Part shown: positions 770-34,360 of the stretch, one piece after another
How the letters are laid out: each line of letters opens with the position of its first letter
Numbering within the stretch: position 1 is the stretch's first letter
Source of the DNA: a virus
Lineage: Duplodnaviria; Heunggongvirae; Uroviricota; Caudoviricetes
Strand: one strand, 5' to 3'
IMG/VR virus record: IMGVR_UViG_3300033075_001920
DNA: 64,000 nucleotides
Program-made: the position numbers and the translations under genes
The notes under the pieces: generated by a model
Databases searched by the model: none
Told to the model about the DNA's origin: nothing
Seen by the model: the letters and a program-made list of their open reading frames with translations, nothing else

Positions 770-1306
770 ATGCGTAATATTAATAAAGTCCTTTCTGCAA
801 ATGGACTTGAACTTGCAAATTTACCGGAAGAATTTCAAACCAGAATTAACAATCTGGAAGCGCAATTTATTGCCTACAATGAAAAGTGCGATGATATAGA
901 GCAAAATCCGGGCAACTACACAGCAGAACAAACCGATGAAGTCTTCCAGGAAGGAAATGGGTTAGATGTTCTTGATGCTGAACTCAGTGGAGAAATAAAA
1001 GCTTGGTACAAATCGGAAAAAGACAGGCTTAAAAAAGAAGCTGCAGAGAACAAAAAGAAAGAGGAAGATCGCCTGAAAGCTGAACAGGAACAAGCCGAGA
1101 AGGAAGCTGCCGATAGAGCTGAAGCTGAACGGTTAGAGAAGGAAAAGGCGGATAGAGAAGCTGCCGATAGAGCAGAAGCTGAAAGGATTGCTGCCGAGCA
1201 GAAACAGAACGATGAAAAGAAAGGATCAGGAGCACTGGGCCTTTTTGTGGGCTTAGGTCTTACTATAATAACACTCGGAGTATACAACGCGTTTAAAGAA
1301 AAATAA
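770..1306 (+). CDS. coiled-coil protein with C-terminal membrane anchor
   Basis: 178 aa with a highly charged K/E/A/R helix region. It contains the direct repeat AADRAEAER (DNA 1103-1132 and 1157-1186). C-terminal hydrophobic helix GALGLFVGLGLTIITLGVY. Confidence 0.6.
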   Translation: MRNINKVLSANGLELANLPEEFQTRINNLEAQFIAYNEKCDDIEQNPGNYTAEQTDEVFQEGNGLDVLDAELSGEIKAWYKSEKDRLKKEAAENKKKEEDRLKAEQEQAEKEAADRAEAERLEKEKADREAADRAEAERIAAEQKQNDEKKGSGALGLFVGLGLTIITLGVYNAFKEK

Positions 1307-1311
1307 TCATA

Positions 1312-1977
1312 ATGGCGTATTTGGATACATTATCAACCTCCGCAATTGCAAATGCTAAGATCTTAGCAGAAACATGCCGGTCAAGAGGTGTATCCAATCC
1401 GGTTTCTATTGCTGCGGCAATGTCAGTTGTATCCAAGGAGTCAGGCTTTATTCCCAAGTTCGAAACCGGTTATTCCGGAACTTCTATAAGCCGAATCAGG
1501 GAGATATTCCCTTCTACATTAAAAAACTTTTCCGATGCCCAACTCGTAAAACTCAAAGCGGATGATGTTAAATTTTTTAATGTCATTTATGGTGGAAGGT
1601 ATGGTAATGGTCCAGACGAAGGGTATAAGTACCGTGGTGGTGGACTGAACCAGGTAACGTTTAAAAATAATTATAAAAAGCTTGCCCAATTAACCGGCCA
1701 CGATCTTGTTAACCATCCCGAGCTGATTAACGACATTCACGTAGCTTCGGAATGCATGGTTGAATATTTTAAATCCTGCTTTGTCAATTCTGCACCAATA
1801 GTGCTGAACCGGTACGGAGCCAAACATATTAATGATTTCACCAATTTGGAAACCGCTGCCAAAGCATTTTATAATGCCAATGCCGGGTTTGCCAAGGATA
1901 CCAGAAACAGTAAGATGGATGGATATAAAAGGACACTTGATCGGGTGGATGAATTATACAGTCTAATACATTTTTAA
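1312..1977 (+). CDS. glycoside hydrolase family 19-like muramidase/chitinase-like enzyme
   Basis: SKESGF..FE followed by YKYRGGGLNQVTFKNNYKKLAQLTGHDLVNHPELI. This matches the GH19 catalytic Glu region and the GRGxxQLTxxxNY core by eye. Confidence 0.7.
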   Translation: MAYLDTLSTSAIANAKILAETCRSRGVSNPVSIAAAMSVVSKESGFIPKFETGYSGTSISRIREIFPSTLKNFSDAQLVKLKADDVKFFNVIYGGRYGNGPDEGYKYRGGGLNQVTFKNNYKKLAQLTGHDLVNHPELINDIHVASECMVEYFKSCFVNSAPIVLNRYGAKHINDFTNLETAAKAFYNANAGFAKDTRNSKMDGYKRTLDRVDELYSLIHF

Positions 1978-2226
1978 ATGACAGAATTATATATCATATG
2001 GTTTGAAACAGCCAAAGAACTAGAAATCAGCCAAGCGGCTAGTTTTCTACAATTAGGACTTGGTGTTTTTTATGGTCCGGATGAAAACTGGCCAAACGGA
2101 TATAAAAGGCTCGAGCAACCATTAAATCAGGAACAGATTGAAATTGTCAATCAGTTGTGCGATCAGCATGTTGCTATTAATTGTGTAAGAGGACCTTATC
2201 CTCCGTATTCACCTACAGGTAGATGA
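1978..2226 (+). CDS. hypothetical protein
   Basis: 82-aa ORF abutting the previous stop (TAAATG). Its stop overlaps the next start (ATGA). Confidence 0.5.
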   Translation: MTELYIIWFETAKELEISQAASFLQLGLGVFYGPDENWPNGYKRLEQPLNQEQIEIVNQLCDQHVAINCVRGPYPPYSPTGR

Positions 2227-2702
2227 AAAATCAATTTAAAATCACAGAGATGGCTAAATTTATGCTGGCAATGTGTTTAAGAACCTTAGAACACAGATAT
2301 TACTGCTATGGGCTTTTCAATAGCCGTATTATCAATATCGTGTTACTGTGGTCTATTATTCCAATTGGAATACTTGCTTATCTGATCATGTACAAGTGGC
2401 TTCCTGCAGATGCAATTTATCAGCAATGGGATGCCAACTTTATTTCCGAGAGCATACAATTCTTTTTTATGGGTCTTTTGATTTATTCGTCGTTTCAAGG
2501 TACCAGACATGCCGGCATGGCAACATCAGTACTGATATACTTTATTTTTCACCTGATCAATAGTATTCGTGGCGTGTACATGAAGGTCTGGTGGTTTGGT
2601 CTATCGTGGAAACTGGTTTTGCTGGGGATGGTCTTTTTTACCTTTTACAAATATTTTAAAGGGGCTAAAAAAGATAACCATGTCGAACGAACAATTAAAT
2701 GA
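2223..2702 (+). CDS. multi-pass membrane protein (holin-like candidate)
   Basis: 159 aa with about four hydrophobic segments (IINIVLLWSIIPIGILAYLIMY, FFFMGLLIYSSF, SVLIYFIFHLI, LVLLGMVFFTFY). Confidence 0.55.
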   Translation: MKNQFKITEMAKFMLAMCLRTLEHRYYCYGLFNSRIINIVLLWSIIPIGILAYLIMYKWLPADAIYQQWDANFISESIQFFFMGLLIYSSFQGTRHAGMATSVLIYFIFHLINSIRGVYMKVWWFGLSWKLVLLGMVFFTFYKYFKGAKKDNHVERTIK

Positions 2703-3012
2703 ATGGCTCGGAGTACTGCTTTGGCTGGCAGTAGTATCGCTTACGAAAATAGCATCAGCTTCAAAGGATAAAAAATTAACCACAGCTGAGATGGTTTCAG
2801 AAGTTGCACATGCCTTTTTTGGAGGCATTTTTGCATATCTTTCCATACGCGCTTACAAGGATTTTCAGTGGAAGTGGGCGGTCATTACCGGTGGGGCTGC
2901 AGCAGGAGCTGAACTAATGAAATTTTTTACCCTCAATGTTAAAGCCGGTCTTCGAACGGTAGGAAAAAAAGTTCAAAGTAAAGTCGACAATATTGATAAT
3001 TTAGAAAAATAG
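2680..3012 (+). CDS. membrane protein
   Basis: The track ORF opens at 2596, but the ATG at 2680 (MSNEQLNEW) avoids a long overlap. Hydrophobic helices WLGVLLWLAVVSL and FFGGIFAYLSI. Confidence 0.5.
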   Translation: MSNEQLNEWLGVLLWLAVVSLTKIASASKDKKLTTAEMVSEVAHAFFGGIFAYLSIRAYKDFQWKWAVITGGAAAGAELMKFFTLNVKAGLRTVGKKVQSKVDNIDNLEK

Positions 3013-3014
3013 TC

Positions 3015-3022
3015 TATTTTTG
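3015..3022 (+). promoter_or_regulatory. Bacteroidota-type -7 promoter box (TATTTTTG)
   Basis: TAnnTTTG match 30 nt upstream of the ATG at 3052. Confidence 0.4.
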
Positions 3023-3051
3023 AATTTTCAAAACCATTAAATATTATACAT

Positions 3052-3300
3052 ATGGATAGTCAACCAACCCAAGAAGGCAGACCCCTTACCTATGGAGAAA
3101 AAGCCGTAGGTCTTTCTTTTAATCCATCAGGAGATCCGGCAGTAAATGAATGTAAAAGCATTTTTGCAAGAGCGATTGATCAGATGAATGATCTAAGAGA
3201 AAAATCCGAAAGTAATGAGCAGAAGCGCCATTGTTCTATTGCCATTACCGATATGGAGACAGCCCAGATGAGAGCTGTTAAAGCTATTACCTGGAAATAA
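3052..3300 (+). CDS. hypothetical protein
   Basis: 82-aa soluble ORF followed by an intrinsic terminator. Confidence 0.5.
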   Translation: MDSQPTQEGRPLTYGEKAVGLSFNPSGDPAVNECKSIFARAIDQMNDLREKSESNEQKRHCSIAITDMETAQMRAVKAITWK

Positions 3301-3333
3301 CGATCTGAAATTGTACTGTTCCACCACTTAAAA

Positions 3334-3367
3334 GAAGCCGGTTCGAAAGAATTCGGCTTCTTTTATT
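3334..3367 (+). terminator. rho-independent terminator
   Basis: GAAGCCG (3334-3340) pairs with CGGCTTC (3354-3360), followed by a TTTTATT run. Confidence 0.7.
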
Positions 3368-3401
3368 ACATTTGTATAGTATTTTTATTTTTTATTTTGG
3401 T

Positions 3402-3433
3402 ATCTGAGTCCTGTAGCAATATAGGACTCAGAT
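3402..3433. other. perfect 11-bp stem hairpin in a non-coding gap
   Basis: ATCTGAGTCCT (3402-3412) and AGGACTCAGAT (3423-3433) form a perfect inverted repeat with a 10-nt loop. No T-run follows. Confidence 0.6.
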
Positions 3434-3516
3434 ATTGTAAATCAAACAATTATAAAAAATGTGTTTAAAATAATATACAGATTCTGAATCTAAAAAAATA
3501 TCCTTTTTATTATCTA

Positions 3517-3524
3517 TATTTTTG
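3517..3524 (+). promoter_or_regulatory. Bacteroidota-type -7 promoter box (TATTTTTG)
   Basis: TAnnTTTG match. The extended CTATATTTTTG resembles the box at 7945-7954. It ends 1 nt before the ATG at 3526, so the ATG at 3544 may be the real start. Confidence 0.4.
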
Positions 3525-3525
3525 T

Positions 3526-3807
3526 ATGATAAATCAAAGGATTATGCAAAATTTTTTAAATACAGCTCTCGGCTCATATCTTAAAGTTTTACTTGCTATG
3601 GTCTTAGCTATTGTATTAAAAGACATTGAGTCCGGCAAGACTCTTATGGATATTCTTCACAAAAGCAATCTCAATACCTATGGTACAATTTTGCTCAGTG
3701 GGCTTATTCCTATTATAATCAATGCCCTGAATCCAAAAGATCTTCGCTATGGTAAAAAACCAAAGCCAAAGGATTTCGAAACCAAAACAGACAAACCCAC
3801 TAATTAA
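3526..3807 (+). CDS. membrane protein
   Basis: 93 aa with two hydrophobic helices (YLKVLLAMVLAIVL, GTILLSGLIPIIINAL). An alternative start at 3544 is possible. Confidence 0.55.
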   Translation: MINQRIMQNFLNTALGSYLKVLLAMVLAIVLKDIESGKTLMDILHKSNLNTYGTILLSGLIPIIINALNPKDLRYGKKPKPKDFETKTDKPTN

Positions 3808-3818
3808 TCATAGTTATT

Positions 3819-3935
3819 ATGGCAACAACAGAAAAAACTCCGTCATTAGGAATGGCTATCCTCGGCTTAGGTATATCACTGGCAGTGGTATTTACAGTAG
3901 CCTATGTAGCCGGAAAAGGCTGGAAAAAAGCGTGA
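3819..3935 (+). CDS. micro-ORF, single-helix membrane peptide (38 aa)
   Basis: Not in the track because it is under 60 aa. MATTEKTPSLGMAILGLGISLAVVFTVAYVAGKGWKKA. Its TGA overlaps a GTG in the next frame (GTGA). Confidence 0.4.
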   Translation: MATTEKTPSLGMAILGLGISLAVVFTVAYVAGKGWKKA

Positions 3936-4417
3936 ATAAAGTTTTCGAGCATATCGGTGGTGCTGCTAAGGGTAGTTTGTCCGGAGCATTGGTATACGCA
4001 GGCATAATAGGTCTGATGCTTACCGATGCTGTTCTGACACCTGGGGATATCGCTGCCGACATGCGTGAAAAATCACTCAGGGATAAAATGAGTGAGGGCA
4101 CTATCACTTCCGGGCAATATCAGAAAAAGGCTTCCAATGCTTTTACCTTATATCCTCCCGCATGGTGGGCTCTTGTTCTTGGTCTGGTTTATGTTTCAAA
4201 GGGCGATTATGTTCAGAAAGCAAAATTTGCCGGTATACTCATTGGTTCGGGTGCACTTGCCGCTTTAGCCTTGAATACAAAAAAGCCGGATATTTTGACC
4301 GTAAGAGATAATATGCCGAAGTCAAAACCGGTATCCAGCACCCTGCCTTTCAACGGCCCGAACAAAAAGAAACGAATGGCTCTTATGAGCGGAAATAAAT
4401 TAAAATTCATCAAGTAA
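3932..4417 (+). CDS. membrane protein
   Basis: The track ORF opens at 3749, but its first ~60 codons are R/S/N-rich, overlap two better ORFs and look non-coding. GTG 3932 (VNKVFEHIGG) is proposed instead. Hydrophobic segments GALVYAGIIGLMLT, WWALVLGLVYV and ILIGSGALAALAL. Confidence 0.45.
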   Translation: MNKVFEHIGGAAKGSLSGALVYAGIIGLMLTDAVLTPGDIAADMREKSLRDKMSEGTITSGQYQKKASNAFTLYPPAWWALVLGLVYVSKGDYVQKAKFAGILIGSGALAALALNTKKPDILTVRDNMPKSKPVSSTLPFNGPNKKKRMALMSGNKLKFIK

Positions 4418-4744
4418 ATGGATCCAACACCCAGCCCTACACCGCCAGCATTTGGCTCAGGTCCTCCGCCACCGCCACCAGCGCCACCTGCACCGCCAGC
4501 AACTCCACCAGCGCCACCAATGGCTGAGGGTGGTCAAACTCAATCATCAACTGATGTGGGACAATGGGTTGCTATTGTACTCATTTCGCTTACGTTGGTG
4601 AATTTAGTTCTACAAATATCTTTAAATAGGAAACAGCATGCTCAAATCGGTAAAACCGACGACCAGATAAAAAGAGATATCAAAGAACTTAAACTGAACG
4701 TCCAAAAATCGATGGGAGATAAATATGAACCAGTCACAGTCTGA
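4418..4744 (+). CDS. proline-rich single-pass membrane protein
   Basis: 108 aa with an N-terminal GPPPPPPAPPAPPATPPAPP tract, then helix WVAIVLISLTLVNLVLQI and a charged tail. Confidence 0.6.
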   Translation: MDPTPSPTPPAFGSGPPPPPPAPPAPPATPPAPPMAEGGQTQSSTDVGQWVAIVLISLTLVNLVLQISLNRKQHAQIGKTDDQIKRDIKELKLNVQKSMGDKYEPVTV

Positions 4745-5387
4745 TTTCCTTGATAAAGTAGTTTATGGAACACCCACAGACAGCGATAAGCCGTTTTTGG
4801 TCAAATCTGAATTCGATGAAGTTTTAACCTCTCTTTACATTAAACCTTTCCCGGCATCCGGAAGCGAGGCGACCAAGGATGAAATCCGTGAGCTGATTGC
4901 ACTTCAGCAAGATGCAGCTCAAATGGACCCGAAAATCTCCGGAAGATACCTGCGCTACGACCAGGATATCATTGGTAGTCTTAAAATTATCATTGCCAAA
5001 CATATTCCGGATGAATCAATATCCGGGCTTATTGATCAGATAGTGCAGGATTGCCTGCCGATCATCACCAAATTAAAATACAAATTTCAACGACCAAGGC
5101 CAAATCAGATAGCGCAGTATTTAAAAGCAGCACTGTTTCCCCTTAAAAGTGTTTCCGCATTAAGCCCATCATATCCTTCTGCCAGTGTATTTTATACTCA
5201 GGCTATTTGTGAAGTAATCGGGAGTAAATATCCGGATAAACATGAACTGCTTGAAGAGTTGACTTTCGATGTGGCAACCAGTCGCCTGTATCATGGATTG
5301 AACTATGCAACAGATAATGAATTTGCCATTTACGCGGCAAAGCAGTTATGTAAGCTAAAAGCATTTACAACTAAGTACGGAATATAA
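4725..5387 (+). CDS. PAP2 (acid phosphatase/haloperoxidase) superfamily-like protein, catalytic His residues substituted
   Basis: KLKYKFQRP fits K-x6-RP. SYPSAS sits where PSGH would be. SRLYHGLNYATD sits where SR-x5-H-x3-D would be, with His replaced by Asn. Confidence 0.45.
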   Translation: MNQSQSDFLDKVVYGTPTDSDKPFLVKSEFDEVLTSLYIKPFPASGSEATKDEIRELIALQQDAAQMDPKISGRYLRYDQDIIGSLKIIIAKHIPDESISGLIDQIVQDCLPIITKLKYKFQRPRPNQIAQYLKAALFPLKSVSALSPSYPSASVFYTQAICEVIGSKYPDKHELLEELTFDVATSRLYHGLNYATDNEFAIYAAKQLCKLKAFTTKYGI

Positions 5388-5855
5388 ATGTCAATAAAAA
5401 AGAAGATGTCAAGAAACTTAACACAGGATAACCGTCAGCTCAGGGAGTTTTTAAGCGTATTAACTTCTTCAATAGATAATTTGGGTATTATGCAAACTAC
5501 TCAGATACTCAAGAAAGCACGTAATTCCACAACCATTAATACAGATCTTGCGCATGCAACATATATTGTTGCCGAAATCTTTCAGCTAGCCCCGGATGCT
5601 CTTTTTGGCAAAAGCAGGAAATACCCAAGAAAGTATGCATTTGCAATTTGGGCATTTATAGCATCTGCAGATCTGAATTATTCACTCAAAGACACTTCCT
5701 TATATTGTAAAGCATCAGAAAGCACTTTAAGTAAAAATATAAAGTTTGCCAGAGAATTCCCGGAAAAGACGAAATTTGAAAAGGATATAAAGTTAAAATT
5801 CAATCAATGCCGAGAACGCATTAAAGAACAAATAGTAAATAAATATAGTAAATAG
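5388..5855 (+). CDS. hypothetical protein
   Basis: 155-aa ORF that starts directly at the previous stop (TAAATG). Confidence 0.5.
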   Translation: MSIKKKMSRNLTQDNRQLREFLSVLTSSIDNLGIMQTTQILKKARNSTTINTDLAHATYIVAEIFQLAPDALFGKSRKYPRKYAFAIWAFIASADLNYSLKDTSLYCKASESTLSKNIKFAREFPEKTKFEKDIKLKFNQCRERIKEQIVNKYSK

Positions 5856-5859
5856 TATT

Positions 5860-7002
5860 ATGACCATAGAAAAGAATGACGAATCCGTTTTTTCCCCGTT
5901 TGAAGGAAATGTAAGAGACAGATCATACACCAAACCTGCGATATCACAGAATGAAGTAGGCGGCGAAATTCCTGAGCCTGTATATACCCCTCCTACTATG
6001 GGGCAGATGCAGGAAGCCATGAACGATAAGGCTTTTGAAAATAATCTCGGGGGATTTGGTGCAAAACCTCAATCAAATACCACTTCCAGCACTTCCGGCT
6101 CAGGAAATTCTTCTTCTGGTGGTGATAAAGTAACACCTCCGCCAAAAGCACCTATGCAACCGGTCAATCCGGTCATGAACGAACTGGAGGATACTGAAAA
6201 AAGAAAAGCGGCTCAGATAGCAGTTGAAGCTGCTATGGACGGATACAAAGGTTTGAATAAGTTTGGAAACAGTAAAATCATGTTCAACCTTCCGAAGATT
6301 TCCAAGATGGTTAAGGAAGGAAAGGTAGACCCGCGTATTATTCTCGAACCGGAACCCGGTATAAAGATGCCACTTTTGGAATATATGAAGACATATAACG
6401 CCAATGTGGATGGTATAATCAGTGTTAGCCCTGAATTTGAAAAAAAGGTAAAACCGATTATGACCAGGGTGTTTATGAAAAGGGGAATTGGTATGTCTGA
6501 TGAAGGGCTTTTAGCTTATTACTTCGGAATGGATATTCTGACCAAAACCAAATTGCTCTACGACCTGAATAAGACACTCAAAGATCTGACAGGTGATATT
6601 ATTGAAAGGTCAGCTATTACATTAGCCGGCTCTCCAATCGCGTCCCAGACTTCATATCAACCCGACGTTACTGAGCCTCAGGAAAAAAGAAGTCATCCCG
6701 AGCCTGACCCAACGCCCTCAGGTGGAAACAACTCAGGTGGAGAAAGAGAATTTATAGAACCCCAACAGGAAATAAGCCGTACTTTTGAAGAACCGGAAGA
6801 AAAATCTGCTGTAAAAGAGGAAGTTCATCACGAACCAATTTCTGTCAGCACTGTAAAGGAAAGAACAGGTTCCGAAAAAGTAGAGCAGCCAGTTATTGTT
6901 ACTTCGAAAAGAAAAAGCAAACCTCCTCAATTTGGCAATCCTGAAATATTGAGTGATATGGAACGTGTGGCTAAAAAGGGTACAACAAGAAAAAGAAGAT
7001 AA
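5860..7002 (+). CDS. low-complexity virion/assembly protein with basic C-terminus
   Basis: 380 aa with S/G/T/P/E-rich disordered ends and a C-terminal KKGTTRKRR. It lies immediately upstream of, and is translationally coupled to, the packaging ATPase (TAATG). Confidence 0.5.
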   Translation: MTIEKNDESVFSPFEGNVRDRSYTKPAISQNEVGGEIPEPVYTPPTMGQMQEAMNDKAFENNLGGFGAKPQSNTTSSTSGSGNSSSGGDKVTPPPKAPMQPVNPVMNELEDTEKRKAAQIAVEAAMDGYKGLNKFGNSKIMFNLPKISKMVKEGKVDPRIILEPEPGIKMPLLEYMKTYNANVDGIISVSPEFEKKVKPIMTRVFMKRGIGMSDEGLLAYYFGMDILTKTKLLYDLNKTLKDLTGDIIERSAITLAGSPIASQTSYQPDVTEPQEKRSHPEPDPTPSGGNNSGGEREFIEPQQEISRTFEEPEEKSAVKEEVHHEPISVSTVKERTGSEKVEQPVIVTSKRKSKPPQFGNPEILSDMERVAKKGTTRKRR

Positions 7003-7850
7003 TGGAAGAACTACGCGAACCATTATTAGGTGTGGCCATTGGCAAAAAAGGGGTTGGAAAATCATATCAGACCGATAAACTGATATCGGGCTATATTGCC
7101 GGTAATCCATCTAAGGGTATAAAGGGAAGAAAAGTATTAATCATAGATCCCAACGATGAGTATACCCATATCAAGGCTATTGCATTACAGGATGTAGTTC
7201 GCTTCTCGGTCAGCCCGGTAGTGGAAGCCAGAAGAATTCGTCCATATATCATTGATAAAAATGGTAACACCGAAAGAATGCGATTGGAAGATCTATCCAA
7301 TACTTTAAATATTGTAATGGATGCTTTTTCCGGAGGTCTTCTATTAGTAGAGGATATTAACCGCTATGTGGGAGATAATATGAAGCAGGACGTTATGGGT
7401 GCCATAGCAACCAACCGTCATAGAGATCAGGATATTATTTTGCATTATCAAGGTATTGGACGTATCGGTCCTAAGGTATGGCAGAATTTAAACTGGCTCA
7501 GGTTCCATAAAATCACAGAACCGGTTCACCGCCATAAAAACAAATTCATAGACAAATATGAATTATTGCGTATTACCGAGATTATGGTCAATAATGAATT
7601 CTTCAATGACAATATCCGCTATTTTATTTATGTCGATTGCGACAATATGAAACTGCAGGGAAATATTGATTCTGAAAAATTCAATAAGGCTTGTCTGGAA
7701 TACCTGGAAGAAAACTATTCAACTACCATAGGTCCGATGCTTAGAAGCAGGGGAGATGGTGGCAAAAAAAGATACACTTATGAATCCGCGCTTGCCCATG
7801 AGAAGGACAGGCTTACTAAGTTGTATTTAAAATCAAAGTCTAAAGATTGA
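7002..7850 (+). CDS. FtsK/HerA-superfamily genome-packaging ATPase (A32/PRD1-P9-like)
   Basis: Walker A GKKGVGKS, LIIDPNDEY, Walker B LLLVED, then NRHRDQDIILHYQ (RH-x9-Q signature). Small size of 282 aa. Confidence 0.6.
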   Translation: MEELREPLLGVAIGKKGVGKSYQTDKLISGYIAGNPSKGIKGRKVLIIDPNDEYTHIKAIALQDVVRFSVSPVVEARRIRPYIIDKNGNTERMRLEDLSNTLNIVMDAFSGGLLLVEDINRYVGDNMKQDVMGAIATNRHRDQDIILHYQGIGRIGPKVWQNLNWLRFHKITEPVHRHKNKFIDKYELLRITEIMVNNEFFNDNIRYFIYVDCDNMKLQGNIDSEKFNKACLEYLEENYSTTIGPMLRSRGDGGKKRYTYESALAHEKDRLTKLYLKSKSKD

Positions 7851-7946
7851 ATAATAGCAAGGCTTTTGCCTCTTTATTCAAATAAAATCAACTTTCAACT
7901 TGCTTTTACATCGTGTTGGTAATGAGTTATTACCGAGGATGTGTTA

Positions 7947-7954
7947 TATTTTTG
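7947..7954 (+). promoter_or_regulatory. Bacteroidota-type -7 promoter box (TATTTTTG)
   Basis: TAnnTTTG match in the gap after the ATPase gene. It implies a ~90-nt leader before the ATG at 8050. Confidence 0.45.
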
Positions 7955-8049
7955 AATTCGATTATCAGTCTGTGCTGAAAATCACCCAAGACTCATCGAG
8001 AAAACGACAACAAAAATTTTTACAACACATTAAAAACACCCTTCAAAAA

Positions 8050-8769
8050 ATGAGACAAAACAATAACATCCGTCAATACTTGGATGAAGCGTCTAACAAC
8101 GCACATCAGAAGTTTTTGAACGCGGACGGTTTCTTTGATGACGATCTGAGCTTCACAGCCGGAGAAGACTTCATGAATACCGACGGCAACGCGGTCAGTA
8201 ATGGACCTGCTCCAACCTCTCAGCCATACATCATCATTGTAACAAACACAGGTTCTGCTGTTTCGAACTTTGATTTCCTTGGCTCTAACCAGTACTTGTT
8301 CGATACTGCGACATCAGCATGGACTACCGCCGGTAATCTGGTGGTAAGTAACATCACGATTTCCAGTGGTATCCCGAACATCACGTACCGTGAGGCTCTT
8401 CAACAATTCCAGCAATCGCCGTTCAGTGTGGGTCTTACCTACATTCAGTCGTCTTCTGCTTCTCAGTTGTTACAGGCCATTTCCGTAAACACCAGAGACG
8501 CTAATGGTAACTTGGCGCAAAAACCATTGATTCCAACCATTGACCCGTATCAGCAACAAACTACAGTGCTGGCCATGAAATTTGGCTACCGCATTGATGG
8601 TTTCACAAAGCTGATCATCAACTCAGTGCTGGCTTCAACAACAGTAACCTTCAACATCTACCCATCAGACAACATCAACATCGCTCGTGGTCTGACTGGA
8701 AAACAGGTGTCAAGAGAGTTCGCTTCTCCTGGTATCGTGAAATCACAGACAGTACGTCTGGTTCAGTAA
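8050..8769 (+). CDS. candidate major capsid protein (small beta-rich, jelly-roll-sized)
   Basis: 239 aa from the ATG at 8050; the track ORF opens at 7900 inside the promoter/leader. Beta-strand-like S/T/N/I/V-rich body. It follows the ATPase and is bracketed by its own promoter and the strongest terminator in the window. Function is inferred from context only. Confidence 0.4.
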   Translation: MRQNNNIRQYLDEASNNAHQKFLNADGFFDDDLSFTAGEDFMNTDGNAVSNGPAPTSQPYIIIVTNTGSAVSNFDFLGSNQYLFDTATSAWTTAGNLVVSNITISSGIPNITYREALQQFQQSPFSVGLTYIQSSSASQLLQAISVNTRDANGNLAQKPLIPTIDPYQQQTTVLAMKFGYRIDGFTKLIINSVLASTTVTFNIYPSDNINIARGLTGKQVSREFASPGIVKSQTVRLVQ

Positions 8770-8795
8770 CCAAACCACCCAACACAAAATTCCAA

Positions 8796-8836
8796 AACGG
8801 GGCTGAATGCTGTCTAAGCTCAGCTCCGTTTTTTTT
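8796..8836 (+). terminator. rho-independent terminator
   Basis: AACGGGGCTGA (8796-8806) pairs with TCAGCTCCGTT (8820-8830) over 11 bp with one G-U pair, followed by T8. Confidence 0.8.
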
Positions 8837-8850
8837 AAAACAAAAATCAC

Positions 8851-9288
8851 ATGAGCATGTATGACTATATAGCCAGGAGAGATCCAAGAGGAGCAGTAAA
8901 AGTTCTTTCTGATTTCGGCTATCGTGTTACAGAACCAAGAACAATGGGAAACAACCTTCGCCTTTTGGTTCAAAAAGAAGGTCAACCGGCTCTGATTGCT
9001 ATTTTAGGATTACATCCGGACAAGGATGTAATTTTAGAAGCTTTCGGAGAAGAACAATCCACCCCGCAGGAAAAACCATGCGGATGCAAAGGTTGTTCAG
9101 AAAACAAAAGTTTCGTTAATGCCGATGGAAGCAAGGGTTTAACCTTAAATGAGCTTCTCCCAACCATGAATGCAAATATGCAGGCAAATAACGACGCTAA
9201 TAAACTCGCATCAACCAATAATGCCCTGATCATAGCAGGCGCATTGTTGTTTTCAACCCTCATATTCGTCAACATCAAAAACAAATAA
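8851..9288 (+). CDS. C-terminally anchored membrane protein with FVNADG motif
   Basis: 145 aa with KSFVNADGSKGLTL and the C-terminal helix ALIIAGALLFSTLIFV. Confidence 0.6.
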   Translation: MSMYDYIARRDPRGAVKVLSDFGYRVTEPRTMGNNLRLLVQKEGQPALIAILGLHPDKDVILEAFGEEQSTPQEKPCGCKGCSENKSFVNADGSKGLTLNELLPTMNANMQANNDANKLASTNNALIIAGALLFSTLIFVNIKNK

Positions 9289-9293
9289 CGACA

Positions 9294-9902
9294 ATGGCAA
9301 CATTAAAACCCGAAGATAAACTTTTTACCGCGATGGCTTATACCATCGATAAAAAGCCTAAGGAAACATTGGCTGTAATCAGAAGAAATGGCATATTGCT
9401 TCCTTCCAATGCCAGCCGAAAAGACATCCAGGGAGCTGTTGCTTCCCTTTCCATGAGAAGTAAACCTTTCTGGAAGGATTTTTCGCTTTTAGTTCAAAAG
9501 ACAGGCGAAGAAAATTTCAAAGGATTTGTCCATGCTGACGGAACCCAAGGCTTGAACGATAGTGTAAAGGACAGTAAGAGTAAAGAAAAGAAGGACTATG
9601 CCGACTCTACCTTAGGGAAGGTATTTACTCCAGACTTTATTCAAAATATCCTTGGAACCGGAGTTCAGGTATGGGCTAACAAGCAAAACTCCAAGGCCGG
9701 TGTATCAGGTGTCAATAATGACATCAATTCCGGAAGGAGCAATTACTCCAATGAAGTATCCGGTTCTTCCGGAGATGGTACAGGCAATCCTCCACCTTCA
9801 AAAGGAATCGGGACTACCGGTATCATTTTGATTTCAGTGGGCGCTATTGCATTGATAGGCACAGTGGTCTATTTTGCAATGAAGAGTAAAAAAGGAAAAT
9901 GA
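9294..9902 (+). CDS. C-terminally anchored membrane protein with FVHADG motif
   Basis: 202 aa with GFVHADGTQGLN and the C-terminal helix GIILISVGAIALIGTVVYFAM. Confidence 0.6.
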   Translation: MATLKPEDKLFTAMAYTIDKKPKETLAVIRRNGILLPSNASRKDIQGAVASLSMRSKPFWKDFSLLVQKTGEENFKGFVHADGTQGLNDSVKDSKSKEKKDYADSTLGKVFTPDFIQNILGTGVQVWANKQNSKAGVSGVNNDINSGRSNYSNEVSGSSGDGTGNPPPSKGIGTTGIILISVGAIALIGTVVYFAMKSKKGK

Positions 9903-10141
9903 GTGAGGAAAATAAATATCAAGCTGCATTAGCAAAAGTCAGGAGAGAAAAAACCAACCTTTTAACAGATCAGTCAGGTGAAACGATGAATCTGGTAAAG
10001 GGAAGTGCTTTTGGACTTTTAGCTGGAGCCGGATATGGATTTTTCAAAAAGAAAAACGTATACGTCTGTGCCGTTTTAGGGGCGGTAATAGGCGGAGTGA
10101 TTAACGGAATTGTAATCCCCTATGCAAGTGAGAATATATGA
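9899..10141 (+). CDS. small glycine-zipper membrane protein
   Basis: 80 aa with GSAFGLLAGAGYGFF and VCAVLGAVIGGVINGIVI. ATGA coupling at both ends. Confidence 0.55.
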   Translation: MSEENKYQAALAKVRREKTNLLTDQSGETMNLVKGSAFGLLAGAGYGFFKKKNVYVCAVLGAVIGGVINGIVIPYASENI

Positions 10142-10386
10142 GTAAAGCTGAAAAAATAACACTTGTCTGTATTGCCGTTGGAGCACTGGCTCTTATTGGC
10201 TTGTACGGCAAAAAGATTTCGAGCTATTCATCATCAGACCCTGATGCACCGGTAGGCGACGAAACAGATTTTAATGCAGATGGAAGTCAGTTTAATTACA
10301 ATGCACATGGAAGTAAATTTTCAGATCGCCTGCAACAAAGACAAGTAAAAACCAAAAAGAAACTAACCTTAAATAACCTGTTATGA
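10138..10386 (+). CDS. N-terminally anchored membrane protein with FNADG motif
   Basis: 82 aa with helix ITLVCIAVGALALIGLYG, then DFNADGSQFNYNAHGSKF. Confidence 0.55.
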   Translation: MSKAEKITLVCIAVGALALIGLYGKKISSYSSSDPDAPVGDETDFNADGSQFNYNAHGSKFSDRLQQRQVKTKKKLTLNNLL

Positions 10387-10490
10387 ACAAAACAACCAAA
10401 ATCGTATTTACCATTGCCTTAGTTGGCATTGCAGCATTTTTAATATTCAAAAAACCGGCAGTTGTAGATCCGCCAAAAGAAGTCAAGTAA
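10383..10490 (+). CDS. micro-ORF, single-helix membrane peptide (35 aa)
   Basis: Not in the track. MNKTTKIVFTIALVGIAAFLIFKKPAVVDPPKEVK. Its ATG overlaps the previous TGA and its stop lies 1 nt before the next ATG. Confidence 0.45.
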   Translation: MNKTTKIVFTIALVGIAAFLIFKKPAVVDPPKEVK

Positions 10491-10491
10491 T

Positions 10492-11019
10492 ATGAAATCA
10501 AAAACCCTCATAAAGATTGCAGGAGCCGGATTGCTTGTTTATTTGATTTTCAAATCTTCAAAAAAGTCTGAAGCTCCGAAGGAAACTCCTAAATCTTCCG
10601 GTGGGGGTGGTGGAGGCGGTATGGCATCCAGCCCGATAATTCCTATTTATCCATCCTTTGGTGTTCCTTCAACAACAATAAATACTGTTGTTGGACCAAA
10701 TACCGGAGGCACCCTGTTTAATCCAAATCCTAATTTAATTACTCAGAAGGAAACAACAGGTACCAAGGCTGAAACCACAAAAACCGGAGATAACCAGAAC
10801 ACTACCTATAAAACCCAGGGAGAAGTAACAGGCGGTGGTATTACAGGCGGAGGCACAGGTCAAGGTACCGGATACACGACATCCGGAGGTTCTGGCAGTA
10901 ATGTTTTGACCAAGGATGGAGCAGGCTCCGGAACTAATACAGGAGGCGGACTGGTAGTAAACATGGATGGATTTTCCAAACCAAAAAAAGGCTTACATTT
11001 AGATCATTTCAGAAAATGA
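10492..11019 (+). CDS. N-terminally anchored Gly/Thr-rich membrane protein
   Basis: 175 aa with helix IKIAGAGLLVYLIF, a GGGGGGG tract, G/T-rich repeats and VVNMDGFSKPKKGLHL near the C-terminus. Confidence 0.55.
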   Translation: MKSKTLIKIAGAGLLVYLIFKSSKKSEAPKETPKSSGGGGGGGMASSPIIPIYPSFGVPSTTINTVVGPNTGGTLFNPNPNLITQKETTGTKAETTKTGDNQNTTYKTQGEVTGGGITGGGTGQGTGYTTSGGSGSNVLTKDGAGSGTNTGGGLVVNMDGFSKPKKGLHLDHFRK

Positions 11020-11342
11020 ATAAAACAATTAAAACAGGACTAATGGTGGTAGGTGGCATTGCGGTAGTAATGTTTGCTGCAGGATTCATGGGTAAAAGAA
11101 AAGCTGCTGAAACAGCTTCACCAACCCCGAGCAAACCGGAAGAAAGACCTTCCGATAATGCAAAAGATACGACCACGGCCAATTCGTATGACCCTACGAA
11201 ATTTGGATACAATCCGGGAGCAAAACCTCCGGACATTAAAATAAGTAGTGGCCCTATTCCAACTGAAGTAAATCCGGATTCGAAAACAGTCTTTACTGCT
11301 TTTGATGGTGGGTTAACACTGTCAAAAATACCAAGACGATGA
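11016..11342 (+). CDS. N-terminally anchored membrane protein
   Basis: 108 aa with helix GLMVVGGIAVVMFAAGF and C-terminal FTAFDGGLTLSK. Confidence 0.55.
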   Translation: MNKTIKTGLMVVGGIAVVMFAAGFMGKRKAAETASPTPSKPEERPSDNAKDTTTANSYDPTKFGYNPGAKPPDIKISSGPIPTEVNPDSKTVFTAFDGGLTLSKIPRR

Positions 11343-11662
11343 AAAAGATATTATACATCATAGTGCCAATTGGTCTTGCAGCTGCAGGATTTTTGGTGTA
11401 TAAGAAGTTTTCATCTTCCGGCTCTACCGATGCAGGACCGGTTGAAACTACTCCGGAATTAAAAGATCCGGCTCAAACCCCGTCGGCTCCAAAATTCGAT
11501 ACAGCCAAGGTACCGGCCGTAAACAGCGATAGCAATATTGCAAAAAGCGGAACAGGAAGCTGGATGGCTCCATCAGGTGGCGCAAGCGGCGTGGTTGCAA
11601 ACTTTTCAGGAACAGAAAAAAAAGGATTGTACATAAATGATATCGGCAAATCAGGAATATAA
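11339..11662 (+). CDS. N-terminally anchored membrane protein
   Basis: 107 aa with helix ILYIIVPIGLAAAGFLVY and C-terminal VVANFSGTEKKGLYIN. Confidence 0.55.
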   Translation: MKKILYIIVPIGLAAAGFLVYKKFSSSGSTDAGPVETTPELKDPAQTPSAPKFDTAKVPAVNSDSNIAKSGTGSWMAPSGGASGVVANFSGTEKKGLYINDIGKSGI

Positions 11663-11909
11663 GCTCTCAGGATCAACTTTGCCTTTCGCCCAGTGGCTTG
11701 AAAGGGAAAAAACAAAAGGCAGATTCATTCCCAACAAGGGAGCGACAGAGGAATTCATGAATTTTGCAGGAGCGGAAAAATATCCATCTCCGGATGGAAG
11801 TGAACCAATTCCTGCAGCAAACTACGTGGTTCCAAACCTGCTTAGAACAGCTGCTTTGATTGGTGTTGTTTACATAGTTTATAGAGTATACAAAAATGCC
11901 CAAAAATAA
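11637..11909 (+). CDS. C-terminally anchored membrane protein
   Basis: 90 aa with EEFMNFAGAEK and the C-terminal helix LLRTAALIGVVYIVY. Confidence 0.5.
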   Translation: MISANQEYKLSGSTLPFAQWLEREKTKGRFIPNKGATEEFMNFAGAEKYPSPDGSEPIPAANYVVPNLLRTAALIGVVYIVYRVYKNAQK

Positions 11910-12153
11910 GGTTGTAAAATATGCGCTCATTACACTTGGACTTATAGTATTATATGTCAACAGAGCTATTTTCAACCCTGTAAAATTGCCATTGAATGCA
12001 GATGCCGGTGCCAAAGGAGAAGATGCTAACGTAGCCGATCCCGAAAACGCCAAGAGTGATAACCAGACAGCAATTGACCGTGCATTACTCAAAATCAAGA
12101 CAGGTTCTGTAAAAGTAAATCCAACATCGAAGGAGGCGAGCCAGAGCCTATGA
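11896..12153 (+). CDS. N-terminally anchored membrane protein
   Basis: 85 aa with helix VVKYALITLGLIVLYV, then LPLNADAGAKGE. Confidence 0.5.
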   Translation: MPKNKVVKYALITLGLIVLYVNRAIFNPVKLPLNADAGAKGEDANVADPENAKSDNQTAIDRALLKIKTGSVKVNPTSKEASQSL

Positions 12154-12944
12154 AGTATAGAGTAACGACTAACAACGCACCGATTCGTCTGGAAATAAAA
12201 GTTAAAACATCAAAACCCGAAACGCTGTGTGTATTGGTCTATGATGAAAAGAATCCGGAAGGTACTGTATTTACAAACCGGTGGAAAACAATCAATGGAG
12301 AGGAAACATTTTCCGTCCGTCTTCCATTGAGTCCGGCAACTGCCATTGTGGAGGTTTATAACAAAGCACTTGGCCGTGGAATAAAAAGGGAAAATGAAAC
12401 TTCGTTCTCTATAGAATCAGTTGAAAAGAAAGCACTTGAGCGCAAACTTGCACCAAGCGATATTGCCAATGCCGATATAAGGTCCTTTGTTGACTTTGCG
12501 TGTGCAGTGGCATATAACCTTGGCACAATGGAGCCGGATAAGGCTTACCAAAGTGATGACGGCAAATTCTTCATTAAACTCTCCGGCAGAATGCTGGATA
12601 AACAGGGAAATGAAGTAACCACCCCGGCAAGGATTAACCGCCATACAGGTGTAATTCAGGTATCTAAAAAGCAGATGCTTAAAATGACTGTTCCAATGCG
12701 TTTTGCAATCTTAATGCATGAATTCAGCCATTATTATCTGAATGAAAAGATTGACGATGAGATGGAAGCAGACTTAAACGGCCTGCTGATTTATCTCGGA
12801 TTGGGATTCCCGAGAATAGAAGCATATCAGGCTTTTCTTGAAACCTTCAAGAACCGCCCGAGCGAACTAAATAAAGACCGGTATGATATTATAAATAAAT
12901 TCATTACCGATTTTGAAAACATAGGAATAGTGATCAACAAATGA
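12150..12944 (+). CDS. putative zinc metallopeptidase (HExxH)
   Basis: 264 aa containing FAILMHEFSHYYLNE (HExxH) with a downstream E/D-rich segment. Embedded in the membrane-protein run. Confidence 0.5.
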   Translation: MKYRVTTNNAPIRLEIKVKTSKPETLCVLVYDEKNPEGTVFTNRWKTINGEETFSVRLPLSPATAIVEVYNKALGRGIKRENETSFSIESVEKKALERKLAPSDIANADIRSFVDFACAVAYNLGTMEPDKAYQSDDGKFFIKLSGRMLDKQGNEVTTPARINRHTGVIQVSKKQMLKMTVPMRFAILMHEFSHYYLNEKIDDEMEADLNGLLIYLGLGFPRIEAYQAFLETFKNRPSELNKDRYDIINKFITDFENIGIVINK

Positions 12945-13081
12945 CAAAGAAAATAATTATCATATCGCTTTTGTCAGCCGGGTTAATAGCACTTGGAATC
13001 CATTATGTATCCAAAGATAAAAAGATGCGTATGGGCTCAAAAGAAGCTAATCAGGCGCTGGAAGGTATGAAAATGTATTAA
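12941..13081 (+). CDS. micro-ORF, single-helix membrane peptide (46 aa)
   Basis: Not in the track. MTKKIIIISLLSAGLIALGIHYVSKDKK... ATGA overlap with the previous gene. Confidence 0.45.
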   Translation: MTKKIIIISLLSAGLIALGIHYVSKDKKMRMGSKEANQALEGMKMY

Positions 13082-13084
13082 CAG

Positions 13085-13936: not shown

Positions 13937-13937
13937 T

Positions 13938-34290: not shown

Positions 34291-34360
34291 AATCGTTGGA
34301 ACTTATTTTTTGGTAAAAATAATATTTTTTAAGTTATTCGAAAGTAAAAAGCTATAAACG

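What the first reader, a model, noticed from the sequence alone, without database searches (positions are those of the whole stretch)
4725..5387. PAP2-superfamily-like protein in the virion block with both catalytic histidines replaced
The three PAP2 motifs can be laid onto the sequence in order. KLKYKFQRP fits K-x6-RP. SYPSAS aligns with PSGH, with the His replaced by Ser. SRLYHGLNYATD aligns with SR-x5-H-x3-D, with the nucleophilic His replaced by Asn. The scaffold residues (K, RP, PS, SR, D) are kept while the catalytic His residues are lost, which is the pattern of a pseudoenzyme or a re-purposed lipid/phosphate-binding module. Sitting among membrane proteins of a putatively lipid-containing virion, it could bind lipid phosphate head groups or undecaprenyl-phosphate-type ligands.
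Basis: partly seen in the sequence, partly recalled or inferred. Interest (0 to 1): 0.5.

Follow-up and report, generated by a model that had tools for sequence, protein, structure and literature searches.

The report
Viral acid-phosphatase-like protein without catalytic histidines
This gene of an uncultured virus encodes a soluble protein with the fold of a bacterial acid phosphatase that has lost both catalytic histidines but kept its phosphate-holding residues, so it probably binds rather than cleaves a phosphorylated molecule, and relatives in other viruses have made the same switch many times.

Summary
ORF 4725..5387 (+) encodes a 220-aa protein of the PAP2 superfamily. It is the soluble class A acid-phosphatase type, with no membrane helix and no signal peptide.

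- **Membership:** the window protein alone is sub-threshold for Pfam PAP2 (E 0.0036). A profile built with its homologues hits a P. aeruginosa class A acid phosphatase (7f17, E 1e-8). The AlphaFold model (pLDDT 82) matches the same structure (TM 0.67).
- **Lost residues:** gap-free alignments put S154 at the proton-donor His and N193 at the nucleophile His. Relatives at 35-45% identity keep PSGH and SRxxxGxH.
- **Motif 1:**
- **H190:** it falls in a hydrophobic family column and does not align with the nucleophile.

The gene holds a fixed position in an uncultured virus lineage, about 3-5 kb upstream of a HerA-like ATPase and a jelly-roll protein. Of 143 full-length family representatives, 63 lack at least one His. 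The nucleophile is replaced mostly by Asn, apparently many separate times. K118, R125, S152, R187 and D197 stay conserved.

Best reading: a non-catalytic phosphate-ester binder. Its ligand, and whether it sits in the virion, are unknown.

The parts
4725..5387 (+). Gene for the 220-aa soluble PAP2 / class A acid-phosphatase-like protein that lacks both catalytic histidines
   Evidence: The ORF is. The family profile hits 7f17 at E 1e-8. The AF2 model has pLDDT 82 and Foldseek gives 7f17 at TM 0.67. No 19-aa hydrophobic window exceeds 1.01.
5076..5102 (+). Motif C1 in the homologous register, K118-Y-K-F-Q-R-P-R125-P126 (phosphate-binding Lys and Arg retained)
   Evidence: It aligns to KKHFARPRP of 7f17. 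K118 is 100% except in one small group, R125 100% except 93% in one group, and P126 98-100% in the family.
5175..5186 (+). Motif C2, degenerate: P151-S152-A153-S154 in place of PSGH (proton-donor His replaced by Ser, codon AGT; Gly replaced by Ala)
   Evidence: Alignments. This column is His in 110 of 157 family rows and variable in the rest.
5280..5315 (+). Motif C3, degenerate: S186-R187-L-Y-H190-G191-L-N193-Y-A-T-D197 in place of SRx5Hx3D (nucleophile His replaced by Asn, codon AAC at 5301-5303, one transversion from CAC)
   Evidence: The alignment is gap-free and anchored on the G191 and D197 columns, which are near-invariant across the wider family. The column is H 98, N 40, C 7, S 4.
4418..4744 (+). 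Upstream gene overlapping the PAP2-like start by 20 nt: a 108-aa protein with a Pro-rich N-terminus and one TM helix, conserved next to the PAP2-like gene in related viruses
   Evidence: Synteny and BLASTP hits to L004, L008, L009, L011, L013-L015 and L019. TM segment at residues 51-69.
3749..4417 (+). Upstream 222-aa membrane protein, syntenic in the closest relatives
   Evidence: BLASTP to L008, L009 and L011 at 32-37% identity. One predicted TM segment.
5388..5855 (+). Downstream 155-aa protein. Its start abuts the PAP2-like stop. Other lineage members have RusA plus a ~146-aa protein here.
5860..7002 (+). Conserved 380-aa protein with low-complexity Ser/Gly/Pro/Glu-rich stretches; always lies between the PAP2-like gene and the ATPase
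   Evidence: BLASTP to 11 loci. No Pfam, PHROG or NCBIfam hit.
7002..7850 (+). 282-aa P-loop ATPase of the HerA/FtsK/VirB4 (DUF87) type, a candidate genome-packaging ATPase
   Evidence: Pfam DUF87 at E 9e-6, 26.4 bits against a cut-off of 23.2. Weak NCBIfam VirB4-like hit. 46-60% identical across the lineage.
8050..8769 (+). 239-aa jelly-roll beta-sandwich protein (the ORF is also callable from TTG at 7900), a candidate capsid protein and the most conserved gene of the lineage

Best explanation
The ORF is a functional gene for a cytoplasmic or particle-associated soluble protein of the PAP2 superfamily, of the class A non-specific acid-phosphatase type.

**Shown**
- It is the positional orthologue of a gene found in almost every member of an uncultured virus lineage. 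In most relatives that gene has a complete catalytic site.
- The window copy has lost the C3 nucleophile (His->Asn193), the C2 proton donor (His->Ser154) and the C2 glycine (->Ala153).
- It keeps the phosphate cradle (K118, R125, S152, R187) and the Asp that normally partners the nucleophile (D197).

**Inferred**
- It cannot form the phospho-histidine intermediate, so it is not a phosphatase by the PAP2 mechanism.
- It still binds the phosphomonoester or pyrophosphate ligand that its intact orthologues hydrolyse. It acts by holding, sequestering or presenting that ligand instead of turning it over.
- Enzyme and non-enzyme forms occupy the same genomic slot, and the switch has happened repeatedly, almost always to Asn. 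The family's core role therefore probably depends on binding, with hydrolysis dispensable.

**Unknown**
- The identity of the ligand (lipid phosphate, nucleotide or other).
- Whether the protein is packaged in the particle.
For: **Homology and fold:**

**Residue equivalence:**

**Fixed synteny:** the order is small TM proteins, the PAP2-like gene, 1-2 small genes, a 353-380-aa protein, the ATPase, then the jelly-roll protein. It is seen in L001, L004, L008-L014, L021-L024, L029, L030 and L034-L036.

**Family statistics**
- 128 representatives at 50% clustering score E<=1e-30.
- The nucleophile column is H 98, N 40, C 7, S 4.
- 80 of 143 full-length representatives keep both His.
- In the 33 representatives that lack both His, K118 is 100%, R125 100%, P126 100%, P151 100%, S152 90%, R187 81%, G191 93% and D197 96%. 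G153 drops from 96% to 33%.

**Repeated, non-random loss**
- An NJ tree needs about 22 state changes at the nucleophile.
- 22 of 53 non-His representatives have a His-type representative as their nearest relative.
- Seven amino acids are one nucleotide away from His, yet Asn makes up 40 of the 53 replacements.

**No sign of decay**
- Mean pairwise identity is 29.7% in the non-His group and 29.4% in the His group.
- The closest relative (L024, also Asn at the nucleophile, PCLM at C2) is a full-length ORF at 46% identity that keeps the scaffold residues apart from a Ser->Cys change at position 152.

**Mechanistic precedent**
- In PAP2 enzymes the C3 His is the nucleophile, the C2 His the proton donor and the C3 Asp the charge relay.
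- PgpB H207A is inactive but binds phosphate more tightly (Tm +17 C), held by the C1 Arg, C2 Ser and C3 Arg (PMC7413402).
Against: - No biochemical data exist, and no ligand has been identified.
- I could not inspect the model's coordinates, so the pocket geometry is inferred from alignment only.
- R187 is only 81% conserved among His-less members. G153 is lost, and a side chain at that position impaired PgpB (G162D dead, G162A partly active). Binding could therefore be altered as well.
- Conservation of K, R and D could reflect structural roles, not ligand binding.
- The gene evolves quickly relative to the ATPase and jelly-roll genes in both His and non-His lineages. That fits an accessory or conflict role as well as a structural one.
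- No relative close enough for dN/dS was found.
- His is mildly enriched at neighbouring positions 189, 190 or 192 in non-His members (8 of 53 against 3 of 98, p 0.017). This leaves a small door open to a relocated catalytic residue.
Confidence: 0.6

Rival explanations
1. The protein is still an active phosphatase or phosphotransferase that uses a substitute catalytic residue, for example H190 three residues before N193, or water activated by D197 and N193.
For: H190 lies in the loop between the two C3 helices. Nearby His residues at 189, 190 or 192 are somewhat enriched in non-His members: 8 of 53 against 3 of 98, Fisher p 0.017. A separate clade carries Cys at the nucleophile position, which could be a true alternative nucleophile.
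Against: The H190 column is hydrophobic (L, M or I) in 121 of 157 rows, so the side chain probably points into the core. The window protein is the only one of 53 non-His members with His at 190, and 45 of 53 have no nearby His at all. The proton-donor His and the C2 Gly are lost too. In PgpB, removing the C3 His abolishes activity (PMC7413402).
Confidence: 0.1
2. The gene is a decaying remnant. The enzyme lost its function in this virus and the ORF is drifting with no role.
For: Both catalytic His and the C2 Gly are gone. The gene diverges faster than the neighbouring ATPase and jelly-roll genes: 46% against 62% and 81% between the window and L024. One related locus (L036) has a copy whose reading frame breaks at motif C3.
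Against: The ORF is full length and tightly packed in the operon. The His-less state is shared with L024 at 46% identity, so it has persisted through long divergence without truncation. Pocket and scaffold residues are 81-100% conserved across 33 divergent His-less representatives, and overall divergence equals that of the His-type group. His-type pairs diverge just as fast (L022 and L029: 51% at 95% jelly-roll identity). Compact viral genomes are expected to delete useless genes quickly (general knowledge).
Confidence: 0.1
3. One reading: a structural, virion-associated lipid-phosphate-binding module. It docks onto phosphate head groups (PG-phosphate, phosphatidic acid, undecaprenyl-(pyro)phosphate) of an internal viral membrane or of the host envelope during assembly or entry.
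For: The gene is co-oriented and tightly packed with many single-pass membrane proteins, a HerA-type ATPase and a jelly-roll protein. That is the layout of membrane-containing PRD1/PM2-type viruses. A lysozyme-like gene lies 2.7 kb upstream. The weak best NCBIfam hit of intact orthologues is to the undecaprenyl-diphosphatase SepP (E 1e-6, far below cut-off).
Confidence: 0.2
4. An infection-stage effector in host-virus conflict. Intact family members destroy a phosphorylated host signal or precursor, and His-less members such as this one act as sponges that sequester it.
For: The same domain occurs at the N-terminus of 1031-1950-aa multidomain proteins, one with an HD phosphohydrolase domain, in a block of giant genes in another phage type. 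Related loci carry DUF2958 multidomain proteins a few kb upstream, including DUF2958-RelA/SpoT; RelA/SpoT domains are described in injected polyvalent proteins (PMC5512222), and treating DUF2958 as a marker of that class is my own inference. The gene evolves fast and switches catalytic state repeatedly.
Against: Its fixed position across a deeply divergent lineage is unusual for counter-defence genes, which usually sit in variable regions. The polyvalent-protein survey does not mention PAP2. No target is known.
Confidence: 0.15

Closest known systems
Bacterial class A non-specific acid phosphatases (P. aeruginosa acid phosphatase 7F17, Salmonella PhoN, Morganella PhoC, E. blattae EB-NSAP)
   Same: - Same soluble all-alpha fold over nearly the whole length (TM 0.58-0.67).
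- Profile match over residues 39-206 (E 1e-8).
- Same order and spacing of the C1, C2 and C3 motifs.
- Intact viral orthologues have the full K-x6-RP / PSGH / SRx5Hx3D signature.
   Different: - No signal peptide. Class A acid phosphatases are secreted and periplasmic (general knowledge, not tested here).
- The window protein lacks both catalytic His and the C2 Gly.
- Sequence identity is only 13-18%.
- It is encoded by a virus in a fixed operon position.
- No curated family claims it (Pfam below cut-off, no NCBIfam or PHROG hit).
Integral-membrane PAP2 lipid phosphatases (PgpB, BcrC/YodM, LpxE, SepP)
   Same: Same superfamily and catalytic signature. The PgpB H207A mutant shows that a PAP2 pocket without its nucleophile still binds phosphate, and binds it more tightly (PMC7413402).
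   Different: Those enzymes have 4-6 transmembrane helices, while the viral protein has none. Their structural match is weaker (TM 0.44-0.46).
Vertebrate PLPPR/PRG proteins (PAP2 pseudo-phosphatases)
   Same: PAP2-fold proteins with substitutions at catalytic residues, no phosphatase activity and a retained biological function (PMC9520309).
   Different: PLPPRs are six-pass membrane proteins, and their phosphate-binding residues are also disturbed. The viral family is soluble, keeps the phosphate-binding Lys, Arg and Ser, and has lost catalysis many separate times rather than once.

Membership tests
PAP2 superfamily (PF01569) | Significant sequence-profile match | tested here: met
   The window protein alone scores 17.5 bits against a cut-off of 27.2, which fails. 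Its homologues carry PF01569. The family profile hits PDB class A acid phosphatases at E 1.1e-8, and fused relatives score 30-48 bits. Membership is therefore by homology.
PAP2 superfamily (PF01569) | Core helix-bundle fold | tested here: met
   The AF2 model has pLDDT 82. In Foldseek the 33 best matches and most of the top 50 are PAP2 or haloperoxidase structures, the best being 7f17 at E 1.9e-5 and TM 0.67.
PAP2 superfamily (PF01569) | Motif C1, K-x6-RP | tested here: met
   K118..R125-P126 aligns to 7f17 KKHFARPRP.
PAP2 superfamily (PF01569) | Motif C2, PSGH (proton-donor His) | tested here: not met
   The window has PSAS. H->S154 and G->A153.
PAP2 superfamily (PF01569) | Motif C3, SR-x5-H-x3-D (nucleophile His) | tested here: not met
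   The window has SRLYHGLNYATD. S, R and D are present and the His is replaced by N193. H190 is not in the nucleophile column.
PAP2 superfamily (PF01569) | Phosphatase activity through a phospho-histidine intermediate | not testable with these tools
   Predicted absent, because the nucleophile is missing. An enzyme assay is needed.
Class A non-specific acid phosphatase | Soluble enzyme, full-length similarity including the N-terminal helices | tested here: met
   The profile aligns positions 39-206 to 7f17 residues 22-187. No TM segment is present.
Class A non-specific acid phosphatase | N-terminal signal peptide and periplasmic location | tested here: not met
   The N-terminus is hydrophilic. 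No family representative has an N-terminal hydrophobic stretch (KD15 above 1.8).
Membrane-containing jelly-roll viruses (PRD1/PM2/STIV-like morphogenetic module), as context for 'virion block' | FtsK/HerA-type small packaging ATPase | tested here: met
   Window 7002-7850 hits DUF87 at 26.4 bits against a cut-off of 23.2, and Walker A (GKKGVGKS) and Walker B (LLLVED) motifs are readable in the sequence. A role in packaging is not shown.
Membrane-containing jelly-roll viruses (PRD1/PM2/STIV-like morphogenetic module), as context for 'virion block' | Jelly-roll major capsid protein | tested here: inconclusive
Membrane-containing jelly-roll viruses (PRD1/PM2/STIV-like morphogenetic module), as context for 'virion block' | Cluster of small virion membrane proteins; lipid in the particle | tested here: inconclusive
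   16 of 27 ORFs in 770-16817 have one predicted TM segment. Lipid content and virion location cannot be tested here.

The most novel reading that the evidence does not exclude
The PAP2-like gene is a core component of a previously undescribed lineage of large (50-132 kb) prokaryotic viruses that build particles from a jelly-roll protein, a HerA-type ATPase and many small membrane proteins. Within that lineage a soluble acid phosphatase has been converted, repeatedly and convergently (His->Asn), into a non-catalytic trap for a phosphorylated lipid or signalling molecule. This would be a natural enzyme-to-sponge switch acting in virus assembly, entry or host takeover.
Probability: 0.15. Interest if true: 0.75.

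Novelty: new variant of a known kind. Interest (0 to 1): 0.45.

Why it matters
**Why it would matter if true**
- It would be the first described viral family of soluble PAP2 / class A acid-phosphatase-like proteins. Nothing comparable turned up in PHROGs, in the GenBank phage records searched, in NCBIfam or in the full-text papers searched.
- It offers a natural experiment. Active and inactive orthologues occupy the same genomic slot, and the nucleophile has been replaced by Asn many separate times.
- That makes the non-catalytic function directly testable by swapping His and Asn and comparing binding with turnover.
- It could reveal which phosphorylated host molecule these viruses need to hold or destroy.

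**Limits**
- PAP2 pseudoenzymes are already known in animals.
- The ligand and the role of this protein are unknown, so the finding is of moderate interest, not high.

Tried and rejected
**Searches that gave nothing useful**
- Single-sequence Pfam, PHROGs and NCBIfam gave no usable family assignment for the window protein. PHROGs also found nothing for five homologues.
- tblastn against 50,697 GenBank phage records found nothing for the window protein, the ATPase or the jelly-roll protein. An intact orthologue found only weak generic PAP2/BcrC hits.
- The look-up of encoding contigs does not have the window protein on record.
- The ATPase matched nothing informative in the PDB by sequence, and neither did the jelly-roll profile.
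- Literature searches for a phage or virion PAP2, and for PAP2 among polyvalent-protein domains, found nothing relevant.

**Attempts that failed**
- I looked for closer relatives of the window gene to compute dN/dS. Two metagenome scans and one viral-contig scan found none.
- The genome-collection scan with the PAP2 profile found nothing.
- I tried walking along an IMG/VR contig to look for terminase or portal genes. A DNA-pattern scan returns only about 4 kb, so I dropped it.
It was redone with database homologues.

**Readings rejected**
- A chance motif match is refuted by homology and fold.
- H190 as the true nucleophile is rejected on alignment and column composition.
- An integral-membrane lipid phosphatase is rejected because there are no TM helices.
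- A second, intact PAP2 copy in the window that would compensate does not exist.
Full report
**1. The observation**

Window 4725..5387 (+) is an intact 220-aa ORF. It starts at an ATG that lies 20 nt inside the end of the preceding gene. Its TAA stop is followed at once by the next ATG, so it sits in a tightly packed, co-oriented operon.

On its own the protein barely registers as PAP2:
- Pfam gives E 0.0036, 17.5 bits against a gathering score of 27.2.
- phmmer against PDB sequences gives E 0.07 to a P. aeruginosa acid phosphatase.

Homologues settle the question:
- Five metagenomic proteins at 37-39% identity carry precomputed PF01569 hits.
- A profile of the six sequences hits class A acid phosphatases in the PDB. 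These are 7f17 at E 1.1e-8, PhoN at 2.6e-5, EB-NSAP and PhoC, and also the membrane enzyme LpxE.
- An AlphaFold model built on that alignment (pLDDT 82, pTM 0.84; motifs C2 and C3 in blocks with pLDDT 88-95) has PAP2-fold structures as its 33 best Foldseek hits, led by 7f17 at E 1.9e-5 and TM 0.67.

**2. Residue equivalence**

MAFFT against the homologues and HMMER against 7f17/7f18 agree, and neither needs gaps in the motifs.
- PSAS aligns to PSGH.
- SRLYHGLNYATD aligns to SRxxxGxHxxxD, anchored on the G191 and D197 columns, which are near-invariant in the wider family.

The proton-donor His is therefore S154 (codon AGT). The nucleophile His is N193 (codon AAC, one transversion from CAC). The C2 glycine is A153.

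That column is probably buried.

One correction is needed. The 'KLK...RPRP' sequence allows two registers of K-x6-RP. The homologous register is K118..R125-P126, which aligns to KKHFARPRP of 7f17. K118 and R125 are 100% conserved in four of the five family groups (66% and 93% in the remaining one), and P126 is 98-100% conserved.

**3. What kind of PAP2**

This is the soluble class A acid-phosphatase type.
- The match to 7f17 runs over nearly the whole length.
- Membrane PAP2s match less well (TM 0.44-0.46).
- No 19-residue window exceeds a Kyte-Doolittle mean of 1.01.
- Neither this protein nor its relatives have an N-terminal hydrophobic segment.

It therefore lacks the signal peptide expected of a periplasmic class A acid phosphatase (general knowledge, not tested here). 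It should stay in the cytoplasm unless it is packaged into particles.

**4. The family**

A profile search of 1.84 billion representatives found 3349 hits at E<=1e-3, which include cellular PAP2s, and 128 at E<=1e-30. I aligned the best 150.

| Column | Residues observed (157 rows) |
|---|---|
| Nucleophile (193) | His 98, Asn 40, Cys 7, Ser 4 |
| Proton donor (154) | His 110, otherwise highly variable |

Among 143 full-length representatives, 80 keep both His.

The 33 representatives that lack both His still conserve the phosphate cradle and scaffold:

| Residue | Conservation in His-less group |
|---|---|
| K118 | 100% |
| R125 | 100% |
| P126 | 100% |
| P151 | 100% |
| S152 | 90% |
| R187 | 81% |
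| G191 | 93% |
| D197 | 96% |

Only G153 relaxes, from 96% to 33%.

Several lines suggest that the loss is recurrent and not random.
- A neighbour-joining tree needs about 22 state changes at the nucleophile.
- 22 of 53 non-His representatives have a His-type representative as their closest relative.
- Seven amino acids are one nucleotide away from His, yet Asn accounts for 40 of the 53 replacements.
- Mean pairwise identity is the same in the two groups, 29.7% against 29.4%.

The NJ tree rests on very divergent sequences, so the exact count is soft. The scatter itself looks robust.

The window's closest relative is L024, at 46% identity. It is also His-less (PCLM at C2, SRLFLGHNY at C3) and is full length. 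The inactive state has therefore survived long divergence.

His is mildly enriched at positions 189, 190 or 192 in non-His members: 8 of 53 against 3 of 98, p 0.017. I record this but do not think it rescues catalysis, because 45 of 53 have no such His.

**5. Context**

The gene holds a fixed position in an uncultured virus lineage. The order is:
1. Small membrane proteins.
2. The PAP2-like gene.
3. One or two small genes. In the window this is a 155-aa protein. In others it is RusA plus a roughly 146-aa protein.
4. A 353-380-aa low-complexity protein.
5. A 272-282-aa P-loop ATPase.
6. A roughly 230-aa protein.
7. More small tail-anchored membrane proteins.

This order recurs in contigs from ENA, Logan, JGI, IMG/VR and GTDB MAGs.

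The ATPase passes the Pfam threshold for DUF87, the HerA/FtsK/VirB4 type.

Sixteen of 27 ORFs between 770 and 16817 have one predicted transmembrane segment.

Three things sit awkwardly with it.
- The contigs are 50-132 kb.
- A tail-fibre-like C-terminal domain is present at 18085-20157.
- A recombination gene lies next to the PAP2-like gene in several relatives.

No terminase, portal or HK97-type capsid gene is recognisable in the 64-kb window, but the other half of the source contig was not visible to me. The lineage has no relative among GenBank phage records or PHROGs. In genome collections it appears only in MAG contigs with mutually inconsistent taxonomy, which suggests mis-binned viral DNA.

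**6. Mechanism**

The PAP2 mechanism is established. The C3 His attacks phosphorus and forms a phospho-histidine. The C3 Asp holds that His in a charge relay. The C2 His protonates the leaving group. The C1 Lys and Arg, the C2 Ser and the C3 Arg hold the phosphate (PMC7413402).

The same paper shows that PgpB without its nucleophile (H207A) is inactive but is stabilised by 17 C in phosphate. The anion can then sit deeper between the C1 Arg, the C2 Ser and the C3 Arg.

The window protein has lost exactly the residues needed for chemistry and kept exactly those needed for holding phosphate. My best explanation is a non-catalytic phosphate-ester binder that retains the ligand specificity of its intact orthologues.

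- Shown: homology, fold, residue losses, retention of the cradle, recurrence, and synteny.
- Inferred: loss of activity, retained binding, and a conserved role that depends on binding.
- Unknown: the ligand and the protein's location.

The rivals are set out in the Rival explanations section.

The last rival gets some support. The same domain occurs at the N-terminus of 1031-1950-aa multidomain proteins, one with an HD domain, in another phage type. DUF2958 multidomain proteins, including DUF2958-RelA/SpoT, lie a few kilobases upstream in related loci. RelA/SpoT domains are described in injected polyvalent proteins (PMC5512222).

The gene also evolves faster than its ATPase and jelly-roll neighbours, in both His-type and His-less pairs.

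**7. Comparison with known families**

The protein works like, and descends from, class A non-specific acid phosphatases. It fails three of their defining features: C2 His, C3 His and signal peptide. It should be filed as a PAP2-superfamily homologue, not as an acid phosphatase.

The nearest conceptual precedent is the vertebrate PLPPR/PRG group of PAP2 pseudo-phosphatases (PMC9520309). Those are six-pass membrane proteins whose phosphate-binding residues are also degraded, and they arose within one animal clade. Here the protein is soluble, the cradle is preserved, and the loss is recurrent.

**8. Verdict**

The finding is real and correctly read at the residue level, apart from the motif-1 register.
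- Novelty: a new variant of a known kind, namely an undescribed viral subfamily of soluble PAP2 proteins with frequent, convergent loss of the catalytic histidines.
- Interest: moderate, 0.45.
- What would raise it: identifying the ligand, or showing that the surrounding module really builds a large membrane-containing jelly-roll virus.

Noticed in passing
window 7002-9902, and loci L008-L014, L021-L024, L028-L037: A HerA/DUF87-type 282-aa ATPase is followed by an extremely conserved ~230-aa single jelly-roll protein (1559+ clusters) and by tail-anchored membrane proteins. The contigs are 50-132 kb. None resembles any GenBank phage record or PHROG. In genome collections the module appears only in MAG contigs with inconsistent taxonomy (Planktophila, Bathyarchaeia, Sediminibacterium, Chlamydiales, Flavobacteriales and others). 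This may be an undescribed lineage of large jelly-roll viruses. One MAG contig is 132,486 bp, against 132,469 bp for the window's source contig.
   Followed up: partly
family representatives P0053, P0061, P0072, P0076, P0093, P0094, P0095: A subgroup of the PAP2-like family has Cys at the nucleophile position (G-L-C-L-x-x-D) while keeping the C2 His (PS[MLA]H). This could be a switch to a thiol nucleophile and not inactivation.
   Followed up: no
P0123, P0140, P0147, P0152 (L025 2678-6706, L026 263-4291): The same PAP2-like domain, catalytically intact, forms the N-terminus of 1031-1950-aa proteins. P0123 also has an HD domain. It sits in a block of giant genes (586 and 1633 aa) next to SNase and sigma-70 region 4 genes, in a different phage type.
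   Followed up: partly
L008 6032-7147; L014 3540-5648; L012 4707-7547; L022 3-2315: A few kb upstream of the PAP2-like gene, related viruses carry multidomain proteins with an N-terminal DUF2958 fused to RelA/SpoT, ExoX-like or unknown domains. These resemble the injected 'polyvalent proteins' of phages and conjugative elements. The window has no detectable counterpart.
   Followed up: partly
L036 4348-4947: This lineage member's PAP2-like ORF keeps PSGH, but its reading frame breaks just after the SR of motif C3 (SRLYIWEFIF...). This suggests a frameshifted copy or an assembly error.
   Followed up: no
window 12150-12944: A 264-aa protein that is 47-60% identical across the lineage contains an HEFSH (HExxH) motif, so it may be a zinc metallopeptidase. 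It has no Pfam or NCBIfam hit.
   Followed up: no
window 4418-4744: The 108-aa protein just upstream has a striking proline-rich N-terminus (PPPPPPAPPAPPATPPAPP), then one TM helix and a charged C-terminal helix. It is conserved next to the PAP2-like gene in many loci.
   Followed up: no
window 33604-36473, 43050-44570, 57424-58350, 61399-63865: This part of the window is dense in DNA- and nucleotide-modification genes. There are three DNA methyltransferases (34384-35010, 43050-44570, 61399-62217), a TylF-like O-methyltransferase (33604-34290), DUF5131 (35679-36473) and two PAPS-reductase-like genes (57424-58350, 62900-63865). The window also holds a GDSL lipase (52428-53114) next to an N-acetylmuramidase (53111-53758), and an SPFH/Band 7 protein (40532-41467).
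   Followed up: no
window 1312-1977: A lysozyme-like protein (PHROG endolysin at E 2e-21; weak GH19 and phage-tail-lysozyme Pfam hits) lies 2.7 kb upstream of the PAP2-like gene. Related loci L001 and L024 have it at the same place, and L004 has an M23 peptidase there instead.
   Followed up: partly
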